Source: a virus. From it: a DNA stretch of 64,000 nucleotides. Made by a program: the position numbers and the translations under genes. Where the stretch lies: UHGV virus genome UHGV-0010228; one strand, written 5' to 3'. The notes below the pieces were generated by a model, which saw only the letters and a list, made by a program, of their open reading frames with translations, had not been told where the DNA came from and did no database searches. How positions within the stretch are numbered: position 1 is the stretch's first letter; each line of letters opens with the position of its first letter. Below are positions 4,512-62,359 of this stretch, one piece after another.

Positions 4512-4670
4512 ATGAGTATAGCAAATCAGACAAGTGGAGGAGCAAATTATCAGAATTCAAGTAGTGCAAATGATTTTAAATCTATAAAATTGAATCAAAC
4601 AAGTGCAATACATAATGAAACTATGAATTTCTCAGTTAAGGAGGAATTAAATGGGAAAGAAAACTGCTAA
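4512..4670 (+). CDS. possible small upstream ORF (52 aa) overlapping the topoisomerase start
   Basis: ATG with AAAGGAGA RBS (spacing 8); Ser/Asn-rich product MSIANQTSGGANYQNSS...; ends ~20 nt inside next gene in another frame; below the ORF-track size cut-off. Confidence 0.25.
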   Translation: MSIANQTSGGANYQNSSSANDFKSIKLNQTSAIHNETMNFSVKEELNGKENC

Positions 4671-7071
4671 AGAAGTAAATCTTGTAAGTAAAGACAATAT
4701 ATCATTTAAAGATGATAAGTTTGTATACTTACAAGATGAATTAGACGCGATTAGAGGCGCAATGCGAATGTACATCCCTAGAGGAGAAACTGATGGAGCA
4801 TTGCATTTATTCAAGGAAATTTTCAATAATGCATTAGATGAGTGTAATAATGAAAATTCTCCGGCTAATAAGATTATTGTAGAATTTCGTGAAAGTGAGT
4901 GTAAATTCTCAGTATCAGATGAAGGAAGAGGAATTCCTACAGATATATTAGTAGATGCAGTTATGAAGAAACATGTATCTACTAAATTAGTAGACTTATC
5001 CGAATCTCGTAATAAGAGACAGACTGGTATACATGGTGTAGGTATGACAGTAACCGCAGCATTGACTGATTATATGTCACTTACAACTTATAGAGAAGAT
5101 CATTGTAAAACTATAGAACTTATAGATGGTGTAATGAAAGAATATCCTATAAAGAAATTAAAGAAACCTAGACATGGATTAGAAGTTACTTTAGTACCAT
5201 CTGAGAAATATCTAGGTGAGATTAATCTTACTAACGATATTGTAGAGGATTTTATTAGACATATGGCATATATAGTACCAGATGGAATAATAATTGAATT
5301 CTATAAAGAAGGTCCTGATGGTAATATGGTATTTACAAAATATCATAATTTAGGATTGTCTGAAAATCTTCATTACTTATCATCATCATTAGAATTTCCA
5401 CCTATAGAATTAAAAATCATTACTGAAAATTTTGATTTATTTACAGCGTTTGCATACGATAAATCAACTGATGATATGATCTACGAATCGTATGCGAATT
5501 ATGTAATAACAACTGAAGGTGGAACCCATGAGCAGTTAGTAATTAGATCTCTATGTGAATATTTCACCAGAGAAGCAAAGAAAGCAGATGCTACATCTAA
5601 ATATGAAGTAGCATATGATGATTGTAAAAAAGGATTGTGTTTTGTAGTTAATATAGAGCATGTAAGACCTGAATTAGAAGGACAGCATAAATCTAAAATA
5701 TCAAATAAAGATATATTAGCAGATGGAAAGAAACCATTATTGGATGCGCTTCATACGTATTTTAGTAACAACCCTACTCAGTTGAAGAAAATAATTACTT
5801 ATCTTAGACAGATATCTAAAATAAGACAGGAAGCACATAAGATAAAAGGAGTTTCTAATAAGAAACCATCTACGTTCTTAGATGATGCTGAAATAAAAAT
5901 GTTTAAGAATGTGTCTGATAGAAAGTATAATGGATATAAAGAATTATATATAGCCGAAGGAGATTCTGCATTATCCGGTATAGATAGTGCAAGAAATCCA
6001 AAATATCAGGCAATATTTGGAGTTCAAGGTGTTATAGACAATACTCACGACTTAACATTAACTCAATTATTGCAGAAGAGAACTTTTAAGAATTTAGTTA
6101 AAATTCTTGGATGTGGTATTGGTAAAGATTTTGATATAACTAAATTGAGATTTAATAAGATCATAATAGCATGTGATAGTGATGTTGATGGATCTAATAT
6201 TACCTCTTTGATACTATGCTTCTTCTATATCTTTATGCCAGAACTAATTACACAGAATAAGGTATTTAGAGCAATGCCACCATTATATCTATTAGATAAG
6301 AAATCTCTTAAGAAGTTTTATAATGGCAGAGAATGGTTGTATGATAAACAGGAATATTATGATTTACTTAATACTATCATAGCTAATAATGCAACTATTG
6401 CTTTACCTAATAAATCTTCTAAAAAGAATGAAGTAAATATATTATCTAAGAAAGAAAAGAAAGAGTGGCTTAGTCTCAATTCTGAATATAATCTTGAATT
6501 ACTTAATCTTAGTAAGAAAGCAACATGTGATGAAACTATTCTAGAATATGTCTGCTGGTATTTACTAGAAGCCGATGGTAATGTGAAATTATTTAAGAAG
6601 CTCATTGAGAAAGAATTTAATGAAATGGAATTCGACCCATCAAATCAGGTTCTATTAGGTTCTTGGAATGGAAATTATTTCTCATTAATATGTGATAAGT
6701 TATTCTTAAAGAGTGCAAAGAGATTCATGAACTTATTATCACAGAATATTTCACTATTCGTATATTGTGGTGATAAGGACGAAAATGATATAGAGAAAAT
6801 GACTATAGGTCAATTCTTTAATCTCATGCACAGAAATTATAATGTTAAGATCGAGCAGAGGTTTAAGGGAATTGGAGAATCAGATGCAGATTTATTATTT
6901 GTAACTACAACCAATCCTAAACTTAGAACTCTCATAAAATTTGATCTTAATAGTATAGAAGCAACAAATGAGATGTTTGAATTGCTTCATGGTAAGTCCG
7001 AAAATATGAGAGAGCAGCGTAGGCAGTTACTTGAAAATGCTGAAATATCATATGCGGATATAGACAACTAA
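4651..7071 (+). CDS. type IIA DNA topoisomerase ATPase/TOPRIM subunit (GyrB/ParE / T4 gp39-like)
   Basis: GHKL ATPase N-box EIFNNALDE, G1 DEGRGIP, G2 GIHGVGMTV; TOPRIM ELYIAEGDSA and IIACDSDVDGSNI (DxD); AAGGAGG RBS. Confidence 0.9.
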   Translation: MGKKTAKEVNLVSKDNISFKDDKFVYLQDELDAIRGAMRMYIPRGETDGALHLFKEIFNNALDECNNENSPANKIIVEFRESECKFSVSDEGRGIPTDILVDAVMKKHVSTKLVDLSESRNKRQTGIHGVGMTVTAALTDYMSLTTYREDHCKTIELIDGVMKEYPIKKLKKPRHGLEVTLVPSEKYLGEINLTNDIVEDFIRHMAYIVPDGIIIEFYKEGPDGNMVFTKYHNLGLSENLHYLSSSLEFPPIELKIITENFDLFTAFAYDKSTDDMIYESYANYVITTEGGTHEQLVIRSLCEYFTREAKKADATSKYEVAYDDCKKGLCFVVNIEHVRPELEGQHKSKISNKDILADGKKPLLDALHTYFSNNPTQLKKIITYLRQISKIRQEAHKIKGVSNKKPSTFLDDAEIKMFKNVSDRKYNGYKELYIAEGDSALSGIDSARNPKYQAIFGVQGVIDNTHDLTLTQLLQKRTFKNLVKILGCGIGKDFDITKLRFNKIIIACDSDVDGSNITSLILCFFYIFMPELITQNKVFRAMPPLYLLDKKSLKKFYNGREWLYDKQEYYDLLNTIIANNATIALPNKSSKKNEVNILSKKEKKEWLSLNSEYNLELLNLSKKATCDETILEYVCWYLLEADGNVKLFKKLIEKEFNEMEFDPSNQVLLGSWNGNYFSLICDKLFLKSAKRFMNLLSQNISLFVYCGDKDENDIEKMTIGQFFNLMHRNYNVKIEQRFKGIGESDADLLFVTTTNPKLRTLIKFDLNSIEATNEMFELLHGKSENMREQRRQLLENAEISYADIDN

Positions 7072-7081
7072 AAGGAGATAT

Positions 7082-9556
7082 ATGGCAAAGAAAAAGAAAG
7101 ATTCCGGAATAGATACTAATTCTCTATGGTCCGGAATAGAAGATGATGCATTTATCAATGAATCAAATCTTAAAGAAGTTGATATTGCAGAATATAATCA
7201 AAAAGAAATGACAATATTTTCTGCGAATGTTAATTATTTTAGACAGATTATAAGATTATCTGATTCACTAAAACCTGTAGAAAGAAGAATACTCTATTCA
7301 ATGTTTAAGTCTGGGAATCGTCCTGGACTTAAACAGAAATCAAATCTCATAGTAGGTAATGCAGCATTGATACATAATCATGGTGATTGTTATCCAACAT
7401 TAGTATCGATGTCTCAAAGATGGAAAAAGATGGTGCCGTTGATTGATGGTAAAGGAGCATTTGGTTCTGAATCTGAAGAACGATATGCTGCTATGAGATA
7501 TACTGAAGCATCTATGAGTAAATATGCTTATGAATGTTTCTTTGAAGATTATGATGATGATTGTGTTGAGCAGTTATTCAATACAGCATCTGATAGTTAT
7601 GAACCTATGTCATTACCAGCTAAATTTCCGAATATTTTAGTTAATGGTGGATTGGGTTTTGCAGTTGGTAATAGTTTCTGTATTCCACCATTTAATATTG
7701 ATGATATAATAGCTAATTGTGAGAAAGTAATGAAGAATCCTAAAGCACCAGATGTATTTATGATTCCAGATTTTCCAACAGGTTGTTATATCGTAGATGA
7801 TGGTGAAACTTTAAAGACAATATGTGATACTGGTAAAGGAACTATAAAGATGAGAGGTGTTGTTGATGTAGTAGAAACTTCTAAGACTTGGGAGTTGAGA
7901 ATAACTGCATTACCATGGTTTGTAACATTATCATCTATAGAGACAAAGCTGGTTGATCTTCATAAAAATGGTACACTTCCTATTAAGGATTTACAGAATC
8001 ATTCACATCCAATAAAATTAGCTGATGGTAAAATAGGATCTAAAGTTGATTATCGAATTATAATAGATAAAACTCATGATCCATATGCTATATTAGAGAA
8101 GATATATAAGAATACAATGCTACAGAAATCCTTAGGTATAAACTTTAAAGTTGTGCTTGAAGAGCTAGCTATAAAGACTTTATCTCTAAGAGAGCTTATA
8201 TTATCTTGGATTGATGAAAGAAGATCATATAAAAGAAGATTATATAATAAGAAGATAACTAAGCTTAGTGCTAGAATTGACTTATTAGAAATTCTCTTAT
8301 ATTTATTGAAGGCTGAGAATATCGAGAAGACATTAAAGATAATTAAAGATTCTAATTCTGATGAAGTAGTAAAGAAACTCATGAAACATGGAAAGATGAA
8401 TTCTTATCAAGCATCTAAAATTGCTGATATGAAATTATCAGCATTTACTAAAGATGCTAGAAAGAAATATGCTGAAGAGAAAGCTGCTAAAGAAAAAGAA
8501 TTAGAAAAGGTATTATCAATAGTTAAATCTGAAAAGAAAATTGATAAGATTATTCTTGAAGAACTATATGATCTTAAGAAATACTCATCTCCAAGAAAAA
8601 CTCAGGTTATAACCGATGACACTGGAGAAAAGATTGCAGATATTGATTATAATATAATCATAACTAAAATGGGATTGATTAAAAAGATACCGTTTAATCC
8701 AGATCCAAATAAGAATTCTAACATGGGTTCATTTAAGAATTTTGATGCACCTATTAAAAGAATAACGTGTAATAATCTCAATAGTATTTTAATGTTTGAT
8801 AGTTTTGGTAGATATTCTGCAGTTCCAGTTTATAAGATAGACACAACTGAATTATCTCATCATGGTAATAATCTATATGATATTGCAGGTCTTAATGGTA
8901 GCGTAGTTACTGTAATGGATCAATTAGATGATAATTATATAGAGTATATGAGTAAGATCGGCGATTTATTTATGGTAACTTTAACTAGAAATGGGTATAT
9001 TAAGAAGACACCATTAGAAGCATATACTAAAATAAGGTCAACTAAGAATATTAAAGCATGTAAACTTAGAGATGATGATTCTCTTGTATGGGCTGGAGTT
9101 GTAGTTAGTAAAGAAGATATTATTATCTATTCAAAAAAAGGTAATTATGTTGCAATGAACATAGATGATATTTCTCCACAGGGAAAAGATTCTATGGGTG
9201 TAATTGGAATGAAGATGAAAGATCTTGATGAATGTGTTGGTATTGCATTTGTTGGAGATAAAGATCAGTATATTACAGTTATAACTGAAAAAGGTAATAT
9301 AAAGAAATGTGAGATTCAATATCTCACAACTGGTAAAGGTAAGAGATCATATCTTACATCATTAGATACAAATGATAATGTTGTATTTGTATCTGGTATG
9401 ATAGATAAGGAAAGTGTTATAGTCTTTACGAGGACAGATTATACAGAAATTGAAGCGACTATAATACCAACCCTATCTAGGAAAGCAAAATGTAAGAAGA
9501 TGATACCAGTGCCACAAGGTTCATCTATAATAAGATGTGACATAGTAAAGAGGTAG
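7082..9556 (+). CDS. type IIA DNA topoisomerase DNA breakage-reunion subunit (GyrA/ParC / T4 gp52-like)
   Basis: active-site tyrosine context AAMRYTEA identical to GyrA; follows B subunit by 10 nt; AAAGGAGA RBS. Confidence 0.9.
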   Translation: MAKKKKDSGIDTNSLWSGIEDDAFINESNLKEVDIAEYNQKEMTIFSANVNYFRQIIRLSDSLKPVERRILYSMFKSGNRPGLKQKSNLIVGNAALIHNHGDCYPTLVSMSQRWKKMVPLIDGKGAFGSESEERYAAMRYTEASMSKYAYECFFEDYDDDCVEQLFNTASDSYEPMSLPAKFPNILVNGGLGFAVGNSFCIPPFNIDDIIANCEKVMKNPKAPDVFMIPDFPTGCYIVDDGETLKTICDTGKGTIKMRGVVDVVETSKTWELRITALPWFVTLSSIETKLVDLHKNGTLPIKDLQNHSHPIKLADGKIGSKVDYRIIIDKTHDPYAILEKIYKNTMLQKSLGINFKVVLEELAIKTLSLRELILSWIDERRSYKRRLYNKKITKLSARIDLLEILLYLLKAENIEKTLKIIKDSNSDEVVKKLMKHGKMNSYQASKIADMKLSAFTKDARKKYAEEKAAKEKELEKVLSIVKSEKKIDKIILEELYDLKKYSSPRKTQVITDDTGEKIADIDYNIIITKMGLIKKIPFNPDPNKNSNMGSFKNFDAPIKRITCNNLNSILMFDSFGRYSAVPVYKIDTTELSHHGNNLYDIAGLNGSVVTVMDQLDDNYIEYMSKIGDLFMVTLTRNGYIKKTPLEAYTKIRSTKNIKACKLRDDDSLVWAGVVVSKEDIIIYSKKGNYVAMNIDDISPQGKDSMGVIGMKMKDLDECVGIAFVGDKDQYITVITEKGNIKKCEIQYLTTGKGKRSYLTSLDTNDNVVFVSGMIDKESVIVFTRTDYTEIEATIIPTLSRKAKCKKMIPVPQGSSIIRCDIVKR

Positions 9557-9857: not shown

Positions 9858-10607
9858 ATGGCAGATAATAAATATAATAATTCAATTACAACGAGCTTAA
9901 TAACATTATTTGATAGCTCAAGTGTACAGTTAAGAATATCAGGATTAGAAAATGGAATCTCAGTTGCATTTTGGATGCCTAATAGAGATCCGGTAACTGG
10001 TAAATTGACTTATCCTAAAGAATCCAGATATTCAACTATAATAACAACTGATAGAGTTGCTACATTAGATAAGATGATAAGTGAATTACTTATACCAGAA
10101 TTTGAAGCTGGTAGAGATAAATCAGTTGCTGTATTTACAAATAGGCAGAAATCCATGATTTTTGAAATTAGAGTTATTAATGGGGAATTCTTCGCATCAT
10201 TATATACAGATGTAGACCCTATGACTTTAATACCTAAGAATGGATTTAGATTCAAATTTGAAAAGACAACTGCGGCATCTGATTATAATAGTGAAACAGG
10301 TAATATGAATATTACTGAATATGATGGTAATTTCTATATCTTTACAGAATTACTTCATAACATAGTCACTATTGGAAATAATAAAGTTTCTGGTCATTCA
10401 GTAAGACAGGCAAATTCGTTTACAACATCTTCATTATTTGAATATATTAGAGCGATCGCTGCTAAGATGGGAGTAACTGTAGAAAATAGATCTTACAGTT
10501 CTATGAGTACCAGTCCCTCAACATCTTATGAAAACTCTACTACGAATACCAGTGATCCAATGCCTGAAATGAAAGAAATTACAGATATTACTCAGATGCT
10601 TCAGTAG
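9858..10607 (+). CDS. hypothetical protein
   Basis: 249 aa, TAAGGAGG RBS, Ser/Thr-rich C-terminus. Confidence 0.55.
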   Translation: MADNKYNNSITTSLITLFDSSSVQLRISGLENGISVAFWMPNRDPVTGKLTYPKESRYSTIITTDRVATLDKMISELLIPEFEAGRDKSVAVFTNRQKSMIFEIRVINGEFFASLYTDVDPMTLIPKNGFRFKFEKTTAASDYNSETGNMNITEYDGNFYIFTELLHNIVTIGNNKVSGHSVRQANSFTTSSLFEYIRAIAAKMGVTVENRSYSSMSTSPSTSYENSTTNTSDPMPEMKEITDITQMLQ

Positions 10608-10616
10608 GAGTATAAT

Positions 10617-11423
10617 ATGAGATTAAACGGTCAATTAGTTCCGGATCTATTATTTCCAAAAGATGAATATGGAAATCGGGATGAGATTCTGATCGTTGAT
10701 TTTGATACAGTGTGCCAATCCGAGTGTGAAAATATTGCACTCGGATTGTATCAAAATGATGAATATAAGAAACGATTTCCAAAATTAACTGAAATGATAA
10801 ATATTAGAGATCATTTCGACGTATTTTATAATACGGCACCATTTAATCAGTCTTCTTTTTTTGATTATATTTCTGATAATACATTATCAGATGAAGAAAA
10901 GAAAGCACTTGCTATTGAAGGATTTTCTACTGATACTTATACTATACAAAATAGTACAATGATGATGTTTGCATTAACAGAATTAGTAGATCAAAAATAT
11001 ATAAAGAAGATTATTTTTTATTTTAATAGACCAATATACGAACATGATATTGGTTATCTATTAGCAAACTTTAAAGATTATGCTGATAAAATAATTGTGA
11101 CTGATGAATCAATGCTATCTTTAGCTGAAGAAGATGTTGAAACTCAACAATATACGACATATATGACAACTAAAATTGATGATATAATAGAGATGATGCA
11201 AAATCCGGAGAAGTATAATACTGTAGGATTAGCTTTCTTTATACCTAAGACTTTAGATAATATGACTATTAAAATTGATGATGGTCACAAATATTATATC
11301 AATAGAGGAGCTGAAGAATTACGCGGATATGAAATGATAGGCCAGATTAGAGTTATACGCTATATATCTGAACCATGGGTGAAATATCCAGATATTTCTT
11401 TAGACGTTAATTTACCAATATAA
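10617..11423 (+). CDS. hypothetical protein
   Basis: 268 aa, AGGAG RBS; 9-nt spacer from upstream stop. Confidence 0.55.
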   Translation: MRLNGQLVPDLLFPKDEYGNRDEILIVDFDTVCQSECENIALGLYQNDEYKKRFPKLTEMINIRDHFDVFYNTAPFNQSSFFDYISDNTLSDEEKKALAIEGFSTDTYTIQNSTMMMFALTELVDQKYIKKIIFYFNRPIYEHDIGYLLANFKDYADKIIVTDESMLSLAEEDVETQQYTTYMTTKIDDIIEMMQNPEKYNTVGLAFFIPKTLDNMTIKIDDGHKYYINRGAEELRGYEMIGQIRVIRYISEPWVKYPDISLDVNLPI

Positions 11424-11437
11424 GAAAAGGAGATATT

Positions 11438-13474
11438 ATGAACAAATCAAGTTTATATGAAGACATTTATTCATCTACTAATATTATTAATGGTGATGAG
11501 TATCGTGAAATGATAACTACTATAGCAAATTTGGCTTCAGATATGGTAGTTAAGACATTAGGACCATATGGTGCTACAACAATCATTGATGATGGTAGTG
11601 GATATACATATCCTACTAAGGATGGTTGGTCAACATTAAATAGACTTAGATTTAATGATCCTATATATAATACATTATTTAATGTATTAAAACAGATTAG
11701 TTTTAATTCTGTAAGTACAGTTGGTGATGGTACAACAACTGCAATGGTTGGGGCTAGTCACTTCTTAAAGAATTTTGATGAGTATGAAAAACCAACTAAT
11801 TTTAGACAGGCAGACTTTATAGCAGCTATGAATAAAGTATCTGATGATATTGAGCATAGAATGCTCAATAGTTCTAGAGTTAAAGTTATTAACTCTGATA
11901 ATATTTCAGATGCTATATTCCCTATAGCATATACGGCAACTAACGGTAATGCCGAATTTGCAAATATTATTCAGGATATATATACACAGACTGAAAATCC
12001 TAATATTCATGTAGAAATGTCTAAAGGAGATAAGATATCGTATGTGATACAAGATGGATATAAATTTGATTCATCTGTATTAGATTTCAATGTATATATA
12101 AATGAAGACAATGGTACATACAAAAAAGACACTGTTACTAAGTGCGTGATATTTGATCATAACATCACATATCAGCAGCATAAGAATATTGTATTAGAAT
12201 TAACGAGATATGCTCAGACACATTCAACTGAAATAATAATAATGGCGCCATACTTTGATGATATTATTACAACTATGATATCTAATCAGATACAGCAGTT
12301 ATCTATGAAAGGTATGATTCCTAATATTATACTCATGCAGGTTCCTATTACAATGGATATCCATAAGCAAATACTTTCAGATATTTCTGTACTTATTAAT
12401 GCACCAATATTTGATACTGCAAGATTAAAGTTATTTAATATTCTTTATCACAATCAGACACATGATAAGGAAGAACAGATTGAAGATGATATTCTAGAAA
12501 TGGATCTTTTCAAAGAAAATAATCCTTCAGAATTATTATTTGCTTGCTTAGGTACTATAAGATCTATAGTAATTGATAAGAAGAATTCATATATTAAGAA
12601 TTATGATTCGATTATTGACCCTGTAAAGTATAATGCATTAATTAAGGATGCTACCGATAGATATCTTAAACTCAAAGAAGACGCCGATAAGACATTTAAT
12701 GGTCATCTTGATAAAGATTATATGTTTGCTAGAATGAGATATATAAAGCTTACTGGTAAGATGGGTACAATATATGTAGGTGGATTATCTGAATTACAGA
12801 AGAGATGTGATAAAGATGCTATTGACGATGCAGTTATGGTTTGTAAGTCAGCATATGAGCATGGTTATGTTAGAGGATTAACTCTCGAACTTATAACTTG
12901 CATTGCTGAAGCAATGACTGATATTAATGAAAATAATATAGAGATATCTGATTATGAAGCAATGGCATATAATTTATTATATAGAACTTTCTTAGATGTA
13001 TCACTTGATTGCCTTAAGAATAAATATGGTGATAGTGAAGTTGTATATGTTAAGGACTTACATGAGGATCCATCTAATGATGAATATCAGACAATAAGAA
13101 TTCAGGATATTGTACCATATTGTGCAGAGCATGATGCTGGATTTAATCTAGTTACCGATACAATTACAGATATTGAAACTACATCAGTTGTATCTTCGGT
13201 TGCCACTGATTTAGAGATTATGAAGGCAGTTATCAATATTCTTACAACTATTATAACATCTAACCAGTTCTTATCTATGGGTAAATCATATGATAGAAAG
13301 GTTAGTCATGATAGGGAATTAGACAGACTTGTTAGTGATAAGAGAGCAATCGCTCGTGCTCAGGCAGAAGAAGTAACCAATGTGCTTAAGACAAATGTGC
13401 TCGGTGACAAAGTTTTTTCACTTTTAAATCTTCCACAGAAAGCTGAGCAGATATCTATGAATTTAGAAGATTAA
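11438..13474 (+). CDS. phage-encoded GroEL-like chaperonin (Cpn60 family), enlarged (678 aa)
   Basis: TLGPYGATTIIDDGSGYTYPTKDGWS...VSTVGDGTTTAMVGA matches GroEL [26 protein letters not shown]...ANDAAGDGTTTATVLA including the invariant GDGTTT nucleotide-binding loop. Confidence 0.8.
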   Translation: MNKSSLYEDIYSSTNIINGDEYREMITTIANLASDMVVKTLGPYGATTIIDDGSGYTYPTKDGWSTLNRLRFNDPIYNTLFNVLKQISFNSVSTVGDGTTTAMVGASHFLKNFDEYEKPTNFRQADFIAAMNKVSDDIEHRMLNSSRVKVINSDNISDAIFPIAYTATNGNAEFANIIQDIYTQTENPNIHVEMSKGDKISYVIQDGYKFDSSVLDFNVYINEDNGTYKKDTVTKCVIFDHNITYQQHKNIVLELTRYAQTHSTEIIIMAPYFDDIITTMISNQIQQLSMKGMIPNIILMQVPITMDIHKQILSDISVLINAPIFDTARLKLFNILYHNQTHDKEEQIEDDILEMDLFKENNPSELLFACLGTIRSIVIDKKNSYIKNYDSIIDPVKYNALIKDATDRYLKLKEDADKTFNGHLDKDYMFARMRYIKLTGKMGTIYVGGLSELQKRCDKDAIDDAVMVCKSAYEHGYVRGLTLELITCIAEAMTDINENNIEISDYEAMAYNLLYRTFLDVSLDCLKNKYGDSEVVYVKDLHEDPSNDEYQTIRIQDIVPYCAEHDAGFNLVTDTITDIETTSVVSSVATDLEIMKAVINILTTIITSNQFLSMGKSYDRKVSHDRELDRLVSDKRAIARAQAEEVTNVLKTNVLGDKVFSLLNLPQKAEQISMNLED

Positions 13475-13482
13475 TTAAACAT

Positions 13483-13520
13483 AAGAAGATAAGACTAAAA
13501 AGTCTTATCTTCTTTTCATT
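13483..13520 (+). terminator. rho-independent terminator
   Basis: aagaagataagactaaaaagtcttatcttctt + T-rich. Confidence 0.7.
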
Positions 13521-13604
13521 TCTAAGCTTTAACGATCATAAAACAAGTTGTTAAATTAATAAAGATTATAAATCTCTTTAATTCTAATAAAGGAGGAAAT
13601 ATAG

Positions 13605-16054: not shown

Positions 16055-16095
16055 ATAAATATGGTATAGACTTTAAAGTCTATACCATATTTATT
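16055..16095. terminator. bidirectional terminator between convergent genes
   Basis: aatatggtatagactttaaagtctataccatatt perfect 14-bp stem. Confidence 0.7.
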
Positions 16096-19000
16096 ATTTA
16101 CAAAATTCGTCTAGTAAGTCATTTTCTAATGCACCTATTTTAGTATCATATATATCAAAATCTCTAATAGGAGATTTGATAATAACTCTTTTAGGTGTAT
16201 ATAAGCCATCAAATCTTTTTAGTATTGTAGTCTGAACTGTTTCTTTTATATAATGAAGAATATTGGATGTTTTATGAATGTATGGTTGTTCCACAGGGAC
16301 TCTATATCCATCTACAAATATTCTAGCAAACTTAAAGTTTATATTATCAGTATATTTTACAAATGTTGTATATGATGTATTATCTCCCCAAGTTAAGTTT
16401 TTATTATAAGAATCGGTCAAGAAGTTACTGTTATATTTATTATCGCTATACCAATCAAATTCTATAGTATCATAATCAATTGGTGTATGAACTAATACTA
16501 TACTATCAAGAGGATTTATCTTTGATGATATATTAGGGTCATTAGATCCTGCTCCTAAATTGGTTATTTTAAGAGTTACATTATCATTTGCATTTGTTGG
16601 CATTACTAATGTATATTCATCATTAGATAATAATCTTCCATTAATATACAATTCATATTTATTAGAATTAATTGATGCTCCATTTAATGGAATTAATATA
16701 CTATTAGTCTTTGATAATTTTTCGGCATTTATTATTGTTGTATTAGTTAAACTACCACCATTTGTTACTGTAATTCTACGATTCAATAAAGCATCATTCT
16801 TTAATTTAATTGAGAGATCTTTTAGACTTATATCTTTATGGGAAAGATCACCATCTGCGTAAGTTGGTATATCTGAAATATCATCAGATGATATTTCTAC
16901 ACCAGATTCTTTAAGAATGATTGGGATTGTATCTTTAGTTGCATACATTTCTTGTAACGATGTAAGTAAATATATAATATCTCGTTGGGTAGCAATAACT
17001 TCACGATATTCGCTAGTTGCAGGATCTTTATATTTATATTTATTAGCAGTTATTATGAATTCAAAATTACTCTTATCATAGATTTCGCCAGTAATTGAAT
17101 CGATAAACATAAGATCTTCTATTTTTATCTCATCAAGTTCACTATCTGAGAATATAAATTGATAGTCATTTTTCATTGTAAATTTAATATCGTCACTAAG
17201 CATATATTCTGATGATGATGTGCTTTTATTATAAATATCCGCAGTGATATCATCACCATTATGAACGTTTTCATATTCGCTAATTACTGTATTAGGATGA
17301 TATATTTTATCATATATGATTTTTTCTTTTATTTTCTTTACAGTATTATCACTAGATGCTGTATAAATATACTGGTTATATTGATCTGGTACTACTTCAT
17401 TTATTTCATCACTATGAGCTTCGAAACTCCAAAGCACTTTACCATTAGATGCTTTTAATTTATATAGTTTATGATCTGTAGATGCTACAAATACATATTT
17501 TTCATTTGCTGATAATGCAACTTTCCATATATTCTGTCCAATAGGAGATTCCCATATTAATGAACCATCACCAGAATTAAGCTTACGAACTATTCCATCT
17601 TCGCCACCACTATATAGTATAGTATTAGAAGAATCTATTATAAGTGAATATGTTGGTTTGGATGAATACGTTTTTTGCCATAATCTCCTAGAATCTTTAA
17701 CTCTAATTTTTGATATTGAATAATCATCGTCCGTTTCACCACTCACATATTTATATGTATAATAATCATCAATGCACAATGCATAAGTTCTATTTACTGC
17801 GGTTTTATAAACTGATTCATCTTTTCTAGTTTCAACGTCTATTATATAAACATTATTATCACTAGATGCAATATACAGATTATCACCATATATATCAGTT
17901 GCAACTGAATAAGGATATCCTACCGGTACTTTATATGTCCATTCAAGTTTACCTGTTTCACTCGATAATTTTCTTACAGTACCAATTTTATCTGCAGTAT
18001 ATATATCATCATCAATAAGTAATAAATCCAATACATCATCACTATTAGTATTTGTCCACACAACTTCCTGAGTATATATTTTACCAGAAGAACTATCAAT
18101 AGATTCTGATGCTAACATACGTTTTACTGGTAATTGATATCTACCATTTATATACGTTAAATTACCACCCATCTTAGTTTCTGTAAGGTATCTCAAAATA
18201 TAGTTAGTATTTTCTTTAATATTCTTTGCCTTAAATGATTTATTTATTGTATGAATTTCAAGATTATCAATAAAATTATACAATTTTACATATATATATG
18301 GATCACTATTTGCTAATATTAGTAATTTATCAAGCATATACCCTCGAATATCGCCTTTATAATCACTATCGATAAAATCATAATGGCCATAATCTGGAAT
18401 TATAGGATTATAATTCTTGATAGATAATATTTTATTATTACCAACCAATGTATTATATTCTGTACGGCCTGTTAAGTTATTCATAAATTCAATAGCATGA
18501 TTATCATATACATAATTAATATGTGACTGATTATATTCGTATAATTCAATATATATCGAATTATGATTTCCTTCATGTACAACTATACGTTTTATATCTC
18601 CTTGAGAATCTATAATGTAATTATACTTACCATTACTATCCATCATAGATTTTATAACTGGATATTGTGGATCATTAACCAATTCACTTATTATGGCTCC
18701 AGTTTCAGCATCATATTTGTCTAAATGACCATTCTGTTTACCAACTAATATAAACTTCTTATCTAATGACATATCAATACTATTGATCATTGATAAACAA
18801 CTACTATTTCTCCATGTGATAGTAAAAGTACTTGTATTATAACACAATAACTCACCAAGATAATTTCCAGTATATAATCTAGTATTATCAGAAGATAATA
18901 CAAAGTTATATAATCCACCAGAACCAGTTACAAATACCGTTGATAATATCGGATCACCTGTGCTTGCTAAATGCGAGCTAAAATATGTTTGAGTTATAGG

Positions 19001-20503
19001 ATCTGGCCCTACTCTACCACAGAATAAAGTTATATCATCATTAGAAATTTCTAATTTATATGCATCATTAGTTACTGAATTGATTGTGTTAGTCCATTCC
19101 ATTGCACCTTTATCAGTTGTATATGAATTAATTTCACCTGTAGATCTAGCAGTAAATACAGAGAAATTAGTTTTATTAACACAGACATCATTTATGCAAT
19201 GTTTATTATATGATATCGTCCATAATACTAATCCTAAAGAAGCCTCAATCTTAAGTAATGCACCATCACTACAACCTACATATAGGTATTTTTCATCGTA
19301 TGTAAGGGTATTACATGTGAATTCGCAATCATAATCATTTGTCCATAGAGTAATATTGTTATCAATACTGAAATATGATAATTTACTCTTTCCGTCTTTT
19401 GTAGATGATATATATACAAATTTATTATCTTTAGTAACTATAAAATTAGCATCACTTCCGAATTCAATATTTGCTAATGTTGTTACAATAACTTCGCTAT
19501 ATGATAATGAATTTGAGAAGTTATATAAATCAGGAAAAGCAAATTCTGAATATATATCACTAGGAACTCTACCTGCATGAACTTCCATATCTCTATTATA
19601 GTCATATACTCGAATATTCTTAATACTAGTAGTATACTCAGAATAGTTAGTTGATATAATAGGTAACGTTTCATCAGATGCCTGATGAGTGATGATATTA
19701 GTTCTATGAGGTCTATTTATTATGTAAATATCCGATACTGATGATATAACACTCTTATCATTAAATATTTTTGAATATGTAAAACTTATATTTGATTGAG
19801 AAATACCATTACATACAGCTGGAGTTACATAATATAATTTAGAAGTTCTCCCCATGGGCACATACAAATCCCAACTATTTGACTCAATTATTCCTGATCT
19901 CATTAATGATGATCTAGGTATTGTTATCTGTGATTTATCACCCGAAGATCCAATAGTCTTAGTAGTAACTTTATATACAGATGCGTATTCTTCATACCAT
20001 AAATTAATAAATACATTATCAATTATGTAATCGGATATAGTTTCATCAGACAATATGTCTTTAGATATAAACATTATAGTCTTATTATATTTAGTAATTA
20101 CAAATGATATATCTAATATAGAATATTTTCCGAATTCACACATTATTTTATAACTAAATATATGATTAGTATCTTTAAATATGTCCATTAATGATATTGA
20201 CATATCATATAATTTATTATATGCTCTAATAAATTTATACCTATCTCTGATAGGTATAATATTATCATCAAATATATAAGAATAAGTACCAACTGCATAT
20301 CCATATTTAGCATTAATATCTTTTCTGATTTTAAAATCATCTATAGATATAGTGCATTCGAAATTTGGAATTAATGAAGCTTCCATTATTCTTGATCTAG
20401 AATAATTCTCATGCATGGCCTGATGCCAAAAATATGCAATCAATTTATCATCATATCTACTATTGAAATAATATGATGCATTACAAAAATAAGGGTTTTT
20501 CAT
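16094..20503 (-). CDS. large (1469 aa) protein with two PQQ-type beta-propeller repeat regions; candidate virion/tail-fibre or adhesin protein
   Basis: repeated ~40-aa units of the PQQ/BamB beta-propeller type (KLYKLKASNGKVLWSF, VRKLNSGDGSLIWESPIG, LDKYDAETGAIISEL, LLKIEASLGLVLWTISY, VYIIDVETRKDESVYK); AGGAGG RBS. Confidence 0.75.
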   Translation of the reverse strand: MKNPYFCNASYYFNSRYDDKLIAYFWHQAMHENYSRSRIMEASLIPNFECTISIDDFKIRKDINAKYGYAVGTYSYIFDDNIIPIRDRYKFIRAYNKLYDMSISLMDIFKDTNHIFSYKIMCEFGKYSILDISFVITKYNKTIMFISKDILSDETISDYIIDNVFINLWYEEYASVYKVTTKTIGSSGDKSQITIPRSSLMRSGIIESNSWDLYVPMGRTSKLYYVTPAVCNGISQSNISFTYSKIFNDKSVISSVSDIYIINRPHRTNIITHQASDETLPIISTNYSEYTTSIKNIRVYDYNRDMEVHAGRVPSDIYSEFAFPDLYNFSNSLSYSEVIVTTLANIEFGSDANFIVTKDNKFVYISSTKDGKSKLSYFSIDNNITLWTNDYDCEFTCNTLTYDEKYLYVGCSDGALLKIEASLGLVLWTISYNKHCINDVCVNKTNFSVFTARSTGEINSYTTDKGAMEWTNTINSVTNDAYKLEISNDDITLFCGRVGPDPITQTYFSSHLASTGDPILSTVFVTGSGGLYNFVLSSDNTRLYTGNYLGELLCYNTSTFTITWRNSSCLSMINSIDMSLDKKFILVGKQNGHLDKYDAETGAIISELVNDPQYPVIKSMMDSNGKYNYIIDSQGDIKRIVVHEGNHNSIYIELYEYNQSHINYVYDNHAIEFMNNLTGRTEYNTLVGNNKILSIKNYNPIIPDYGHYDFIDSDYKGDIRGYMLDKLLILANSDPYIYVKLYNFIDNLEIHTINKSFKAKNIKENTNYILRYLTETKMGGNLTYINGRYQLPVKRMLASESIDSSSGKIYTQEVVWTNTNSDDVLDLLLIDDDIYTADKIGTVRKLSSETGKLEWTYKVPVGYPYSVATDIYGDNLYIASSDNNVYIIDVETRKDESVYKTAVNRTYALCIDDYYTYKYVSGETDDDYSISKIRVKDSRRLWQKTYSSKPTYSLIIDSSNTILYSGGEDGIVRKLNSGDGSLIWESPIGQNIWKVALSANEKYVFVASTDHKLYKLKASNGKVLWSFEAHSDEINEVVPDQYNQYIYTASSDNTVKKIKEKIIYDKIYHPNTVISEYENVHNGDDITADIYNKSTSSSEYMLSDDIKFTMKNDYQFIFSDSELDEIKIEDLMFIDSITGEIYDKSNFEFIITANKYKYKDPATSEYREVIATQRDIIYLLTSLQEMYATKDTIPIILKESGVEISSDDISDIPTYADGDLSHKDISLKDLSIKLKNDALLNRRITVTNGGSLTNTTIINAEKLSKTNSILIPLNGASINSNKYELYINGRLLSNDEYTLVMPTNANDNVTLKITNLGAGSNDPNISSKINPLDSIVLVHTPIDYDTIEFDWYSDNKYNSNFLTDSYNKNLTWGDNTSYTTFVKYTDNINFKFARIFVDGYRVPVEQPYIHKTSNILHYIKETVQTTILKRFDGLYTPKRVIIKSPIRDFDIYDTKIGALENDLLDEFCK

Positions 20504-52131: not shown

Positions 52132-54222
52132 ATGGCTTTTTATAGATGTGATAGAGGATTAGGATTTGATACTAGTAATAGTACAGGAAATAGTAGTGAT
52201 GTATTGTATCCAATTAAATATAATGAATATTCAACGGGACAAATTCGCAATATAATCTTAACTACATTACAATCAAATTTCGCTTTTGAATCAACTTTCT
52301 GTTATAACTGTTATAATAAGAATGATTTTAATTTTAAATTAGATTGTAATGAAACCGACATTAGAAAAGATGTGAGCATATATGATATTGTAGGATCACG
52401 CAAATTTGTACCTAGAGTAAATTTTAAAGAATTTAGATCTAGTAAATATTCCGAAATATTTAACGGCATTAATGATACATGTGATATTATTAGTGATATA
52501 TATGAAGATTCTATATTTATATTTATAGCTCTAAATACAACAATAATTTTAGTGATTACTGATATGAATTTAAACATCATTTCAAGAGAAAAGTTTGATA
52601 TCTCAAATCTATTTATAAATTTGATATCTGAGAATTATAAAAATGAAATTGATAACATTTGGTCAGAAATTAAAAAATATATTAAAAATCCGATATCATA
52701 TGCTTTTAATGATTGTGATGATGCTGAAGTTCCAACATTAATCGAGTCTCTATTTAAAATAAAAAAATCGGATTGTTCTTATTTTAAATATCTGCCAATA
52801 ATTGACAAATTTGATATTGATCTTAATGATAAATTTTCTGATAGCTTTATACACTCAGATTTGGTCGATATGCGTATAGGTACAGGTCAAAACGAAATAA
52901 TTGACAATCTCATATTCATTGACGATAAGATTATATTTAAAGGATTTATCTACGTAATACTCCGCACTGAAGATGATATCCCTATAAAATTGGAATATAA
53001 GTTTAAAAATGCTGATCAGACATATTTAAATACATCTATTAAATATTCAAGGAGATCATCTAGTATTATATCATATACATATATCCTCGATGTACTATAT
53101 GAATATGATATAATATCAAAAAAAATAACTATCAAAAAACATAATCGTCTAAACCCAAATACAGATTCTATTAATGATATTTATGCTATGGAACCATATA
53201 TTACACAATATCAAACACTAAGATCATACGACCCTAACAGATTTTCTAAATATGTCAATTCAACGGGTAAATACATACAATCTTCTCAATTGTATTATTT
53301 TTATTCTCCAGACAAGTGTCAATTAATACAATATGACATTGCAAGCTGTTCTATAATTTCTACTACAAAAGATGATAAGGTAAGTAATCCAACATATGAT
53401 AGTTTTTATTATGATACGAAATCTAATATAATATATATCGTTGATACATATTATGATTCTTCGATACAGGTCAGCCGTTTCACGAATAATTTAGATAAGA
53501 TATCATCGTTTTCTGTATCAATGAACGGAATCGAGTTGGATTCTCCTTTTTTAAAAATAAACGACCCTAATTTGACAAACACGGCATATAGAAAAATATA
53601 TTTACGAAATGCCAGTACTAATAATACTGCTAAATCATATGGTATATTCGTAGAGAATGACATAATTAACTTTTTTGTAACTATAGATCGAGTATGTCAG
53701 AATCCTATTAAAATTGTTGGAAATTCATGTCATATTGCCAATCTTAGAATTTCGTGCGATACAGGCAATCTAATCGATATACAATCTCCAAATACTCAAC
53801 AGTTTAACTCGAACTTTAAAAATGTTCAATGTCTCAAGACATTGAACACCGAGATAATGTCAACTAATGACATTATTGATCATATATTTAGAGTATCGGT
53901 ATATCGTATTTCTAATGAATACGTAGGACGTTTACACTATCGATTAGGGAAGATGAGTGACACATATAAATTAAATATTGATTATATATTTACCGGTGTA
54001 TATAACACGATATGTCATATAATTATTCGAAATAATGGATTGTATTTCACATTACTAATAAAAAATCAATATTCGAATCTAACCGATTATGAAAATATCA
54101 ATTCTTATAATGTCATAATTAATCCATCTACTCTTTATCTTCTTAATGATTATGATACTAACTATAATGGTTATAATATAGATTCTTCTAATTCTAATTA
54201 TACAGATTACTATTTTAATTAA
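52132..54222 (+). CDS. large Asn/Tyr/Ile-rich hypothetical protein (possibly structural)
   Basis: 696 aa, AAAGGAGA RBS; low-complexity composition; no motif. Confidence 0.55.
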   Translation: MAFYRCDRGLGFDTSNSTGNSSDVLYPIKYNEYSTGQIRNIILTTLQSNFAFESTFCYNCYNKNDFNFKLDCNETDIRKDVSIYDIVGSRKFVPRVNFKEFRSSKYSEIFNGINDTCDIISDIYEDSIFIFIALNTTIILVITDMNLNIISREKFDISNLFINLISENYKNEIDNIWSEIKKYIKNPISYAFNDCDDAEVPTLIESLFKIKKSDCSYFKYLPIIDKFDIDLNDKFSDSFIHSDLVDMRIGTGQNEIIDNLIFIDDKIIFKGFIYVILRTEDDIPIKLEYKFKNADQTYLNTSIKYSRRSSSIISYTYILDVLYEYDIISKKITIKKHNRLNPNTDSINDIYAMEPYITQYQTLRSYDPNRFSKYVNSTGKYIQSSQLYYFYSPDKCQLIQYDIASCSIISTTKDDKVSNPTYDSFYYDTKSNIIYIVDTYYDSSIQVSRFTNNLDKISSFSVSMNGIELDSPFLKINDPNLTNTAYRKIYLRNASTNNTAKSYGIFVENDIINFFVTIDRVCQNPIKIVGNSCHIANLRISCDTGNLIDIQSPNTQQFNSNFKNVQCLKTLNTEIMSTNDIIDHIFRVSVYRISNEYVGRLHYRLGKMSDTYKLNIDYIFTGVYNTICHIIIRNNGLYFTLLIKNQYSNLTDYENINSYNVIINPSTLYLLNDYDTNYNGYNIDSSNSNYTDYYFN

Positions 54223-62358: not shown

Positions 62359-62359
62359 C
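62353..62359 (+). promoter_or_regulatory. candidate programmed +1 ribosomal frameshift site CCC_UAA_C
   Basis: last sense codon CCC (Pro) followed by UAA; +1 frame reads CCU AAC and is open for 364 codons beginning with a Pro/Thr linker. Confidence 0.5.

What the first reader, a model, noticed from the sequence alone, without database searches (positions are those of the whole stretch)
11438..13474. Phage-encoded, enlarged GroEL-like chaperonin
The product has unmistakable Cpn60 N-terminal equatorial-domain motifs, including GDGTTT. It is 678 aa versus about 548 for GroEL, so it carries insertions, and no GroES-like gene is adjacent. Phage chaperonins are rare, with reported examples in a few jumbo phages such as EL, OBP and AR9. 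They are of interest as single-ring, co-chaperonin-independent folding machines, for example for folding the capsid protein.
Basis: partly seen in the sequence, partly recalled or inferred. Interest (0 to 1): 0.55.

Follow-up and report, generated by a model that had tools for sequence, protein, structure and literature searches.

The report
Enlarged chaperonin of gut jumbo phage
A giant virus of human-gut bacteria carries its own, unusually large version of the GroEL protein-folding machine; it belongs to a known kind of phage chaperonin but has three conserved add-ons that no studied chaperonin has.

Summary
Window 11438-13474 (+) encodes a 678-aa protein with GDGTTT. It is a full-length Cpn60 homologue, not an N-terminal fragment: Pfam PF00118 scores 66.9 bits, hhalign covers GroEL 18-520, and the AlphaFold model (pLDDT 88.5) matches GroEL/mtHsp60 with TM up to 0.86. 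The core ATP-binding and catalytic residues are invariant in 120 relatives.

The host genome is an uncultured human-gut jumbo phage (contigs >200 kb). It is distantly related to AR9/PBS1-like phages, and the closest characterised protein is AR9 gp228, a single-ring, co-chaperonin-independent heptamer (about 25% identity).

Relative to gp228 there are three main additions:
- a 33-aa acidic apical insertion, ungapped and highly conserved;
- a variable 19-24-aa equatorial hairpin in the region of GroEL's ring-ring contact residues;
- a ~63-aa helical C-terminal tail replacing the GGM tail.

All three additions are present in each of 11 loci examined, down to about 32% identity.

No Cpn10/gp31-like gene was found in the 64-kb window or within ±10 kb in 21 related loci.

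Most likely it is an ATP-driven, co-chaperonin-independent phage chaperonin for phage proteins. Ring number, clients and the role of the additions are untested. I rate it a new variant of a known kind, of moderate interest.

The parts
11426..11432 (+). Shine-Dalgarno site AAAGGAG, 5 nt before the start codon
   Evidence: Read directly from the sequence. The upstream gene's stop codon is at 11421-11423, so the chaperonin is tightly linked to the upstream gene.
11438..13474 (+). Chaperonin gene, 678 aa (Cpn60 superfamily, phage AR9-type, enlarged)
   Evidence: ORF. Pfam PF00118 66.9 bits. PHROG 5725 E=2e-65. hhalign to GroEL prob 99% and to AR9 gp228 prob 100%, E=1e-44. AF2 pLDDT 88.5. Foldseek against PDB E about 1e-28, TMt up to 0.86.
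11438..11869 (+). N-terminal equatorial segment (residues 1-144, roughly GroEL 1-133). Includes T40-L-G-P43, K61-D62-G63 and G96-D97-G-T-T-T101 (nt 11723-11740).
   Evidence: Alignment to E. coli GroEL. These residues are invariant or nearly so in 120 family members.
11870..12052 (+). N-terminal intermediate segment (residues 145-205, roughly GroEL 134-190)
   Evidence: Alignment mapping.
12053..12763 (+). Apical domain (residues 206-442, roughly GroEL 191-376). Has helices H/I (245-261, 275-290) and an elongated alphaK-alphaL hairpin (395-418, 426-439) with a conserved Lys-rich tip.
   Evidence: Alignment, AF2 secondary structure and conservation. Hydrophobic positions L234/L237/L259/V263 are kept as V252/L255/I277/I281.
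12449..12547 (+). Apical insertion (residues 338-370, 33 aa, net charge -8). Absent from GroEL and AR9 gp228.
   Evidence: hhalign and MAFFT gaps against GroEL and AR9. Ungapped in all 120 family members, with N339 120/120, P363 119/120, D350 112/120 and H338 110/120 inside it, and N334 115/120 just before it. AF2 pLDDT 86-95 there. Present in relatives down to 32% identity. Charge.
12764..12859 (+). C-terminal intermediate segment (residues 443-474), with catalytic D464 (= GroEL D398; nt 12827-12829)
   Evidence: Alignment. D464 is invariant in 120/120.
12860..13279 (+). C-terminal equatorial segment (residues 475-614)
   Evidence: Alignment to GroEL 409-523. The TDxEIxxxxxxILTTxxTSNQF block is shared with AR9 gp228.
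13034..13105 (+). Equatorial insertion (residues about 533-556). Predicted beta-hairpin in the region of GroEL residues about 461-464/helix alphaQ, where GroEL's ring-ring contact residues lie.
   Evidence: Gaps against GroEL and AR9. AF2 strands 535-540 and 550-554, pLDDT 88-95. Variable in length and gapped in 25-60% of family members.
13280..13471 (+). C-terminal extension (residues 615-678). Predicted helices 620-652 and 654-662, then a disordered end. Replaces the GGM tail of GroEL; AR9 gp228 ends 7 residues after the SNQF anchor.
   Evidence: All 120 family members have at least 41 residues after the SNQF anchor (median 71, maximum 361), and none has GGM.
13483..13520 (+). Intrinsic-terminator-like hairpin (14 bp, 4-nt loop) followed by a T-run. 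Marks the end of the transcription unit.
   Evidence: with the sequence.
9858..11423 (+). Two conserved upstream genes of unknown function (249 aa at 9858-10607; 268 aa at 10617-11423). They travel with the chaperonin gene in related phages.
   Evidence: Homologues sit in the same order directly upstream of the chaperonin in most of 21 related loci, even where GyrB/GyrA are absent. No match in Pfam, PHROGs, PDB or cultured phages.

Best explanation
The gene encodes a functional, ATP-driven, ring-forming chaperonin of the phage AR9-gp228 type. This type derives from group I (GroEL-like) chaperonins but works without a GroES-type lid. The gene belongs to an uncultured jumbo phage (>200 kb) of the human gut.

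Proposed mechanism:
- Subunits assemble through their equatorial domains into a heptameric ring, most likely a single ring.
- Non-native phage proteins bind the hydrophobic helix H/I face of the apical domains.
- ATP binding and hydrolysis (D62, D97, D464) drive apical and intermediate domain movements that release the client for folding.
- Likely clients are phage proteins made in bulk during infection, such as the endolysin and virion proteins.

The clade-specific additions modify this basic machine:
- The conserved, strongly acidic 33-aa apical module changes the client-facing or inter-apical surface.
- The variable equatorial hairpin lies in the region of GroEL's ring-ring contact residues and the contact residues themselves are not kept, which argues against a GroEL-type staggered double ring.
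- The ~63-aa C-terminal helix replaces the flexible GGM tail at the floor of the cavity.

Shown here: homology, domain architecture, residue conservation, gene context, and absence of Cpn10 nearby. Inferred: oligomeric state, co-chaperonin independence, clients, and the roles of the three additions.
For: Full-length Cpn60 homology:
- Pfam 66.9 bits and PHROG 5725 E=2e-65.
- hhalign to GroEL 18-520, prob 99%.
- AF2 pLDDT 88.5. Foldseek to GroEL/mtHsp60/Thermus Cpn60 E about 1e-28, TMt 0.82-0.86, about 610 aligned columns.

Closest relatives:
- AR9 gp228 by tblastn (25%, 89% coverage), by hhalign (E=1e-44) and by BFVD Foldseek (E=5.5e-35).
- gp228 is a single-ring heptamer that refolds endolysin with ATP and without a co-chaperonin (PMC9598537). 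It is a late gene, expressed with the virion proteins (PMC5312081).

Residue conservation in the 120-member family:
- The core ATP-site residues T30-P33, K51-G53, G86-T90 and D398 equivalents are invariant or nearly so (T91 is T in 90 and S in 30 members); other pocket positions differ (see evidence against).
- Helix H/I hydrophobic positions are kept.
- The family is under clear purifying selection: 49 invariant columns at 40-57% identity.

Phage context:
- Major head protein, RNAP beta', endolysin, DNA polymerase and topoisomerase II are in the window.
- The MCP and RNAP are nearest to AR9/PBS1/S6/LPJP1/phiR1-37.
- The gene's GC (0.305) matches the window's (0.294).

Co-chaperonin and ring number:
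- No Cpn10/gp31 in the window or within +-10 kb in 21 related loci, 427 kb in total.
- GroEL inter-ring residues and allosteric salt bridges are not conserved, as in phage EL (PMC7185714).
- Some family members carry 140-360-aa domains on the C-terminus. Seven of these could hardly fit inside a closed double-ring cavity, which favours an open-bottomed single ring (inference).
Against: - There are no experimental data for this protein or any member of its clade.
- Oligomeric state cannot be derived from a monomer model.
- G415/G416 of the GroEL nucleotide pocket are L481/T482 here (M/L and N/C in the family). D495 is S586 (N in the family and in AR9). Nucleotide handling may therefore differ.
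- Only 64 kb of a >200-kb genome was inspected for a co-chaperonin, and host GroES use cannot be excluded.
- Here the gene ends an operon that begins with topoisomerase II genes. In AR9 the homologue is late and sits elsewhere in the genome, so timing and clients may differ.
- The C-terminal helix is not significantly amphipathic (muH 0.28; 19% of shuffles reach it), so a bundle or floor role has no direct support.
Confidence: 0.72

Rival explanations
1. It is a lid-dependent group I chaperonin after all. It cycles with a GroES-type co-chaperonin, either the host's GroES or a phage Cpn10 encoded outside the 64-kb window.
For: The fold is group I-like and includes the alphaK-alphaL hairpin. Helix H/I hydrophobic positions, which bind the GroES mobile loop in GroEL, remain hydrophobic. 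AF2 returned a conformation closest to GroES-bound cis subunits (TMt 0.82-0.86 against about 0.57-0.63 for unliganded or open-state chains). Many marine phage GroELs sit in operons with GroES (PMC5649160). More than two thirds of the genome is unseen.
Against: No Cpn10/gp31-like ORF was found in the window or near the gene in 21 related loci. The three characterised phage chaperonins (EL, OBP, AR9) work without a co-chaperonin, and EL does not bind GroES (PMC7185714, PMC9598537). Y199/Y203/F204 and V264 are not conserved. The AF2 conformer choice is not evidence of a physiological state.
Confidence: 0.15
2. It is a specialised assembly factor rather than a general foldase. The conserved acidic apical module and the C-terminal tail (with extra domains in some relatives) would recruit one specific partner. 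Candidates are the conserved upstream 249- and 268-aa proteins, or a virion or replication complex. ATP cycling would then drive assembly or disassembly of that complex.
For: The 249-aa / 268-aa / chaperonin gene order is conserved across relatives down to about 35% identity, independent of the topoisomerase genes. The apical insertion is among the best-conserved parts of the protein. C-termini are decorated with varied domains. Iyer et al. speculated that jumbo-phage HSP60s serve a dedicated (dis)assembly role (PMC7824862).
Against: Gene adjacency may only reflect a conserved replication or early module. The neighbours have no detectable function. The characterised relatives act on generic clients such as endolysin, rhodanese and alpha-synuclein (PMC9598537, PMC7185714).
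Confidence: 0.12
3. It is a cellular groEL on a bacterial or misassembled contig, or a recent host-derived acquisition, and so an ordinary housekeeping gene.
For: None beyond the Cpn60 homology itself.
Against: Only 16-18% structural-alignment identity to cellular GroELs. 89.7 bits against the 582-bit cutoff of the GroEL equivalog model. Phage genes lie on both sides. The same gene occurs on IMG/VR viral contigs up to 255 kb. A scan of 185,579 species genomes found only two distant (21-24%) relatives. Base composition matches the surrounding phage DNA.
Confidence: 0.01
4. It is a degenerate, catalytically dead chaperonin remnant.
For: G415, G416 and D495 equivalents are substituted.
Against: All catalytic and phosphate-binding residues are invariant in 120 homologues. 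The ORF is intact with a strong RBS and a terminator. The model is confident across all domains. AR9 gp228, which shares the D495N-type change, is an active ATP-dependent chaperonin (PMC9598537).
Confidence: 0.03

Closest known systems
Bacillus phage AR9 gp228 (and its orthologues in PBS1, Goe21, BpSp, Staphylococcus phages S6/MarsHill/Madawaska, and Yersinia phiR1-37)
   Same: It is the best hit by tblastn (25% identity over residues 14-614), by profile comparison (prob 100%, E=1e-44, 512 columns) and by fold (BFVD E=5.5e-35). Both sit in the same kind of genome: a jumbo phage with multisubunit RNAP and a related major head protein. Shared features are a D495N/S-type pocket change, the TDIEI...TSNQF C-terminal block, an elongated K-L hairpin, no GGM tail and no adjacent co-chaperonin.
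   Different: The window protein is 116 aa longer. It has a 33-aa conserved acidic apical insertion, a 19-24-aa equatorial hairpin and a ~63-aa C-terminal helix, all absent from gp228. G415/G416 is G-N in AR9 but L-T here. It is more remote from cellular GroEL (89.7 vs 206.5 bits on TIGR02348). Its genomic neighbourhood differs: the end of a topoisomerase II operon here, against a late gene near tail and nvRNAP genes in AR9 (PMC5312081).
Pseudomonas phage EL gp146 (PDB 6TMT-6TMX)
   Same: It is a phage-encoded, GroES-independent, group-I-derived chaperonin. phmmer gives E=3.9e-16 over residues 12-333. The same indel hot spots are remodelled: the apical surface loop 306-331, an elongated alphaK-alphaL connection, and helix alphaQ (GroEL 462-471) replaced by a loop at the ring-ring interface. 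The D83-K327 and R197-E386 salt bridges are lost (PMC7185714).
   Different: EL is 558 aa and lacks the C-terminal helix. It forms double rings that split into single rings with ATP. The insertions here are larger and different in sequence. The two come from phiKZ-like versus AR9-like lineages.
E. coli GroEL / mitochondrial Hsp60 (group I chaperonins)
   Same: The three-domain fold is the same (TMt up to 0.86). So are the core ATP-binding and catalytic residues, the hydrophobic helix H/I positions and the alphaK-alphaL hairpin.
   Different: Structural-alignment identity is 16-18%. It scores far below the GroEL equivalog cutoff. It has no GGM tail, no conserved inter-ring contact residues or allosteric salt bridges, no nearby GroES and about 130 extra residues.
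Group II chaperonins (thermosome/CCT) with a built-in lid
   Same: They work without a separate co-chaperonin and carry an apical-domain insertion, the helical protrusion that closes the cavity.
   Different: Profile scores are much weaker than for group I (28 bits for thermosome against about 100 bits for the GroEL subfamily models). The alphaK-alphaL hairpin, which group II lacks (PMC7185714), is present. The apical insertion lies at GroEL position about 305-313. From my own recollection of the thermosome structure, which I did not test here, the group II lid emerges before helix H.

Membership tests
Cpn60/TCP-1 chaperonin superfamily (Pfam PF00118) | Profile score above the curated gathering threshold | tested here: met
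   66.9 bits against a cutoff of 34.3, E=1.9e-18.
Cpn60/TCP-1 chaperonin superfamily (Pfam PF00118) | Three-domain subunit in the order equatorial, intermediate, apical, intermediate, equatorial | tested here: met
   hhalign covers GroEL 18-520. The AF2 model (pLDDT 88.5) aligns over about 610 columns with GroEL/mtHsp60, TMt 0.82-0.86.
Cpn60/TCP-1 chaperonin superfamily (Pfam PF00118) | Nucleotide-binding GDGTT motif, TLGP loop and catalytic aspartates (GroEL D52, D87, D398) | tested here: met
   T40-P43, D62, G96-T101 and D464 are present, and invariant or nearly so in 120 relatives.
Cpn60/TCP-1 chaperonin superfamily (Pfam PF00118) | Assembly into 7-9-membered rings with ATPase activity | not testable with these tools
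   Only monomer prediction is available. This needs SEC-MALS or EM and an ATPase assay.
Bacterial GroEL proper (NCBIfam TIGR02348 equivalog; group I with GroES) | Score at or above the equivalog cutoff | tested here: not met
   89.7 bits against a cutoff of 582.1. The best subfamily model gives 99.6 against 352.
Bacterial GroEL proper (NCBIfam TIGR02348 equivalog; group I with GroES) | Cognate Cpn10/GroES co-chaperonin gene | tested here: inconclusive
   None in the 64-kb window or within +-10 kb in 21 related loci. The remaining part of the genome (total >200 kb) and the host GroES were not examined.
Bacterial GroEL proper (NCBIfam TIGR02348 equivalog; group I with GroES) | Flexible Gly-Gly-Met C-terminal tail | tested here: not met
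   The tail is a 64-residue charged helical segment. 0 of 120 family tails contain GGM.
Bacterial GroEL proper (NCBIfam TIGR02348 equivalog; group I with GroES) | Staggered double-ring contacts (K105, A109, E434, R452, E461, S463, V464) and allosteric salt bridges (D83-K327, R197-E386) | tested here: not met
   The equivalent positions are E115, P119, D505, L523, E543, D557 and I558, and are variable in the family. The salt-bridge positions are S93/K381 and S212/E452. A 24-aa insertion lies in the 461-464 region.
Phage co-chaperonin-independent chaperonins (PHROG 5725; AR9 gp228 type) | Profile match to the phage GroEL family over the full length | tested here: met
   PHROG 5725 E=2.1e-65, residues 13-614 on profile positions 4-533 of 540. 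hhalign to gp228 gives prob 100%, E=1e-44.
Phage co-chaperonin-independent chaperonins (PHROG 5725; AR9 gp228 type) | Encoded in a jumbo-phage genome of the AR9/PBS1-related lineage | tested here: met
   The exact protein occurs on contigs in the 0.2-1 Mb size class. The MCP and RNAP beta' are nearest to AR9/PBS1/S6/LPJP1/phiR1-37. IMG/VR viral contigs reach 255 kb.
Phage co-chaperonin-independent chaperonins (PHROG 5725; AR9 gp228 type) | Single-ring heptamer and ATP-dependent refolding without a co-chaperonin | not testable with these tools
   Shown for gp228 (PMC9598537). Here it is only inferred.
Phage co-chaperonin-independent chaperonins (PHROG 5725; AR9 gp228 type) | Size and architecture of characterised members (about 515-562 aa, no C-terminal extension) | tested here: not met
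   678 aa with three extra elements. Hence a variant, not a typical member.
Group II chaperonins (thermosome/CCT) | Profile score to thermosome/CCT models | tested here: not met
   The best thermosome model gives 28 bits against a cutoff of 450, and only the N-terminal about 150 residues match. All top structural hits are group I.

The most novel reading that the evidence does not exclude
The enlarged clade may be a self-contained encapsulating chaperonin, built differently from both group I and group II. The invariant, acidic 33-aa apical module would act as a built-in lid or a negatively charged cavity lining. The seven C-terminal helices would form a floor or plug under a single ring. A single homo-heptamer would then enclose clients without GroES and without a second ring. 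The conserved upstream 249- and 268-aa proteins could be dedicated partners.
Probability: 0.12. Interest if true: 0.7.

Novelty: new variant of a known kind. Interest (0 to 1): 0.4.

Why it matters
Only three phage chaperonins (EL, OBP, AR9) have been studied. It remains unclear how a lidless, often single-ring machine folds proteins.

This clade is abundant in gut and other metagenomes. It adds three defined, separable modules to the AR9-type scaffold:
- an apical acidic module (residues 338-370);
- a hairpin in the region of GroEL's ring-ring contact residues (about 533-556);
- a C-terminal helix (615-678).

This amounts to a natural experiment on what can substitute for a lid, a second ring and the GGM tail. 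It is directly testable by expression, deletion constructs and cryo-EM.

It also shows that chaperonins are a conserved feature of the wider AR9-related jumbo-phage lineage, including uncultured human-gut members. However, the finding does not overturn anything. The protein is recognisably a member of a known class, and its function is predictable in outline.

Tried and rejected
- Nucleotide search of cultured phages found no match. The phage is known only from metagenomes.
- I searched 1.84 billion representative proteins with the C-terminal tail alone (67 aa). It returned one repetitive 3,285-aa protein (38 stretches), a compositional hit. This says nothing about the tail's origin.
- Hydrophobic-moment test of the tail helix was not significant, so I dropped the claim that it is an amphipathic bundle-former.
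- For the upstream neighbours (249 and 268 aa), Pfam, PHROGs, a PDB profile search and tblastn against cultured phages were all negative.
- Homologue searches for those neighbours gave only near-identical sequences.
The permitted 3-sequence job gave a useless model (pLDDT 36), so no fold search was run on it.
- The genome-contig scan for host clues gave only two distant hits, in a Waltera MAG contig and a Patescibacteria MAG, which say nothing about the host.
- Cluster-member look-up gave no names or accessions.
- The literature search for the orientation of GroEL loop 305-316 (E315C) showed it is a standard dye-labelling site. It did not state where the loop sits relative to the cavity.
- Model coordinates are not exposed, so I could not measure where the insertions point.
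- I first recalled 6TMT as phage OBP. The paper shows 6TMT-6TMX are phage EL.
- Rejected readings: a cellular groEL or contamination, a pseudogene, and a group II chaperonin (see the rival explanations and membership test).
Full report
**Observation.** GDGTTT is at residues 96-101. A strong Shine-Dalgarno site (AAAGGAG, 11426-11432) lies 5 nt before the ATG. The upstream gene's stop codon ends 14 nt before that ATG. A perfect 14-bp hairpin followed by a T-run (13483-13520) starts 9 nt after the stop codon. The gene is therefore the last cistron of a + strand transcription unit.

**Is it a whole chaperonin or only an N-terminal resemblance?**
- Pfam PF00118 scores 66.9 bits against a 34.3 threshold.
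- The phage family PHROG 5725 'chaperonin groEL' matches residues 13-614 over nearly its whole profile, E=2e-65.
- phmmer against PDB sequences finds mtHsp60, GroEL and phage EL gp146, with one stretch through the equatorial, intermediate and apical domains (query 20-332) and a second in the returning intermediate/equatorial part (425-499).
- A 120-sequence family profile aligns to E. coli GroEL residues 18-520 with 99% probability. I verified my reference GroEL sequence as identical to PDB 4pkn.
- An AlphaFold2 model built on that alignment is confident (mean pLDDT 88.5, pTM 0.76). Foldseek aligns about 605-615 columns to GroEL, Thermus Cpn60 and mtHsp60, with E about 1e-28 and TM up to 0.86 normalised to the target.

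**Where the extra residues are.** The comparison uses E. coli GroEL and the nearest characterised relative, AR9 gp228 (562 aa). Minor differences from GroEL are about 10 N-terminal residues, small loop changes and a K-L helical hairpin about 10-17 aa longer. The longer hairpin is shared with AR9, and the family has a conserved Lys-rich tip (K413, K415, K418, K426). The three large additions are absent from both GroEL and gp228:
- **Apical insertion (residues 338-370).** It is 33 aa with net charge -8. It sits at the site of the GroEL surface loop about 305-313, is predicted helical, and has pLDDT 86-95. It is ungapped in all 120 relatives and is among the best-conserved regions. Inside it, N339 is 120/120, P363 119/120, D350 112/120 and H338 110/120; N334, just before it, is 115/120.
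- **Equatorial beta-hairpin (about 533-556).** It lies in the region of GroEL 461-464/helix alphaQ, where GroEL's ring-ring contact residues lie. It is confidently modelled, but variable in length and sequence across the family.
- **C-terminal extension (615-678).** It is predicted as a 33-residue helix, a shorter helix and a disordered end. All 120 relatives have at least 41 residues after the conserved SNQF anchor (median 71). None has GGM repeats. Several carry whole extra domains of 140-360 aa there.

The same three sites are indel hot spots in phage EL gp146 (PMC7185714). A more distant IMG/VR relative has a different, larger (about 75 aa) insertion at the same apical site.

**Functional residues.**
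- The phosphate-binding loop (T40-L-G-P43), K61-D62-G63, G96-D97-G-T-T100 and the catalytic D464 (GroEL D398) are invariant or nearly so in the family. T101 (GroEL T91) is T in 90 and S in 30 of 120 members.
- G415/G416 are L481/T482 (M/L and N/C in the family). D495 is S586 (N in the family and in AR9).
- The hydrophobic helix H/I positions L234, L237, L259 and V263 stay hydrophobic. Y199, Y203, F204 and V264 do not.
- The allosteric salt bridges D83-K327 and R197-E386 and the GroEL inter-ring residues are not conserved, as reported for EL (PMC7185714).
- The protein scores only 89.7 bits on the GroEL equivalog model (cutoff 582), against 206.5 for AR9 gp228. It scores 28 bits on the best thermosome model.

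It is therefore group-I-derived, but neither a GroEL orthologue nor a group II chaperonin.

**Genome context.**
- The window has uniform GC of about 0.29, and the gene's GC is 0.305.
- It encodes topoisomerase II B and A subunits directly upstream (4651-9556), two putative virion proteins downstream, a DNA polymerase, an RNAP beta'-like subunit, an endolysin and a major head protein.
- The head protein and RNAP subunit are most similar (23-34%) to those of AR9/PBS1, Staphylococcus S6-like phages, Listeria LPJP1 and Yersinia phiR1-37. These are the same phages that give the best chaperonin hits.
- The exact protein occurs on human-gut (Hadza) metagenome contigs of 68-104 kb and on contigs in the 0.2-1 Mb size class.
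- Relatives lie on 219-278-kb contigs and on IMG/VR viral contigs.
- A scan of 185,579 species genomes found only two distant relatives.

Taken together, this is a lytic-type jumbo phage of the broad AR9-related lineage. Strong SD sites hint at a Bacillota-like host (inference).

**Co-chaperonin.**
- No Cpn10 hit with E <= 0.045 appeared among the 25 best Pfam families for 25 small ORFs.
- No six-frame fragment resembles GroES or T4 gp31; the best E-value is 1.6.
- None is found within +-10 kb of the gene in 21 related loci, 427 kb in total.
- The rest of the genome and the host GroES remain untested.

**Family.** The 5.8-billion-protein search returned 505 hits. The best 120, which are all that were listed, are 643-985 aa long and 40-57% identical. 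IMG/VR relatives at 32-36% identity also have all three additions. In total, all 11 loci examined between about 32% and 45% identity carry them, while AR9 and two further relatives at 22-24% identity do not. The additions therefore define a clade. BFVD has no comparably long GroEL-type (group I) chaperonin. Its best hit is AR9 gp228, and the longest GroEL-type hit is 609 aa. One 782-aa CCT-theta-like phage protein is a weaker hit at 11% identity. I found no paper describing the clade, and a 2026 review of jumbo phages does not mention chaperonins at all.

**Mechanism.** The best-supported reading is an ATP-driven, ring-forming, co-chaperonin-independent chaperonin like AR9 gp228. gp228 is a single-ring heptamer that refolds endolysin with ATP (PMC9598537) and is a late gene (PMC5312081).

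I put about 0.85 on 'functional ATP-dependent chaperonin'. I put about 0.6 on 'single ring, no co-chaperonin'.

Three points argue against a GroEL-type double ring:
- the GroEL inter-ring residues are lost;
- an insertion lies in the region of those contact residues;
- some relatives have bulky C-terminal domains that could not fit into a closed cavity.

This last step is inference. The roles of the acidic apical module and the C-terminal helix are unknown. The helix is not significantly amphipathic. Rivals are use of host or distant phage GroES (0.15), a dedicated assembly factor linked to the conserved upstream genes (0.12), a dead remnant (0.03) and a cellular gene (0.01).

**Verdict.** The finding is real and correctly interpreted in outline. 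It is a new variant of a known kind, the AR9-type phage chaperonin, with three conserved structural additions and wide distribution in uncultured jumbo phages. It is a good target for structural work but not a surprise in principle, so I score interest at 0.4.

Noticed in passing
window 9858-10607 and 10617-11423 (+): Two ORFs (249 and 268 aa) of unknown function sit directly upstream of the chaperonin. Homologues keep the same order next to the chaperonin in most related loci, even where the topoisomerase genes are not adjacent. Neither matches Pfam, PHROGs, PDB or any cultured phage. The 249-aa protein has an S/T-rich linker and an acidic C-terminus that recall SSB-like proteins (my impression only).
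   Followed up: partly
window 16094-20503 (-): A 1469-aa protein with many beta-propeller/WD40/PQQ-type Pfam hits and no PHROG match, next to putative virion proteins.
   Followed up: no
L005 1582-4784 (278-kb contig ERZ27286926:k141_206620): In this relative the GyrB-like gene is split into three separate ORFs (HATPase_c, DNA_gyraseB and DNA_gyraseB_C parts) with gaps of about 250 and 670 nt. This may reflect introns, inteins or homing elements. In the window the gene is intact (806 aa).
   Followed up: no
proteins P0117 (985 aa), P0093 (851 aa), P0002/P0009/P0027/P0060 (about 790-800 aa): Some family members carry large extra domains fused to the chaperonin C-terminus. Two of them (P0117, P0093) have Cys-rich segments with repeated CxxC pairs that look like zinc ribbons.
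   Followed up: no
L027 about 10001-11935 (IMG/VR 232-kb contig): A 22%-identical phage chaperonin has a different insertion at the same apical site (95 residues in the aligned segment against 21 in GroEL and AR9). It lacks the C-terminal tail. The site is a recurrent insertion hot spot.
   Followed up: partly
window 11426-11432 and about 13590-13598: Strong AAAGGAG(G) Shine-Dalgarno sites precede both genes inspected. With 29% GC and AR9-like relatives, this hints at a Bacillota-like host rather than Bacteroidota.
   Followed up: no
window 60601-62358 and 62300-63448 (+): The major head protein ORF overlaps the listed TTG start of the next ORF by 59 nt. The true start of the downstream gene is probably later.
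   Followed up: no
window 1-64000: No tRNA genes in the whole 64 kb.
   Followed up: yes
window 52132-54222 (+) and 57953-59761 (+): Two large ORFs (696 and 602 aa) have no PHROG match and no significant Pfam match. The 696-aa one gives only a sub-threshold amidoligase hit.
   Followed up: no
protein P0001 versus window 11438-13471: The cluster representative, listed as '100% identical', differs from the window protein at three positions: A130S, T482N and I503L. T482 is the G416-equivalent pocket position.
   Followed up: yes
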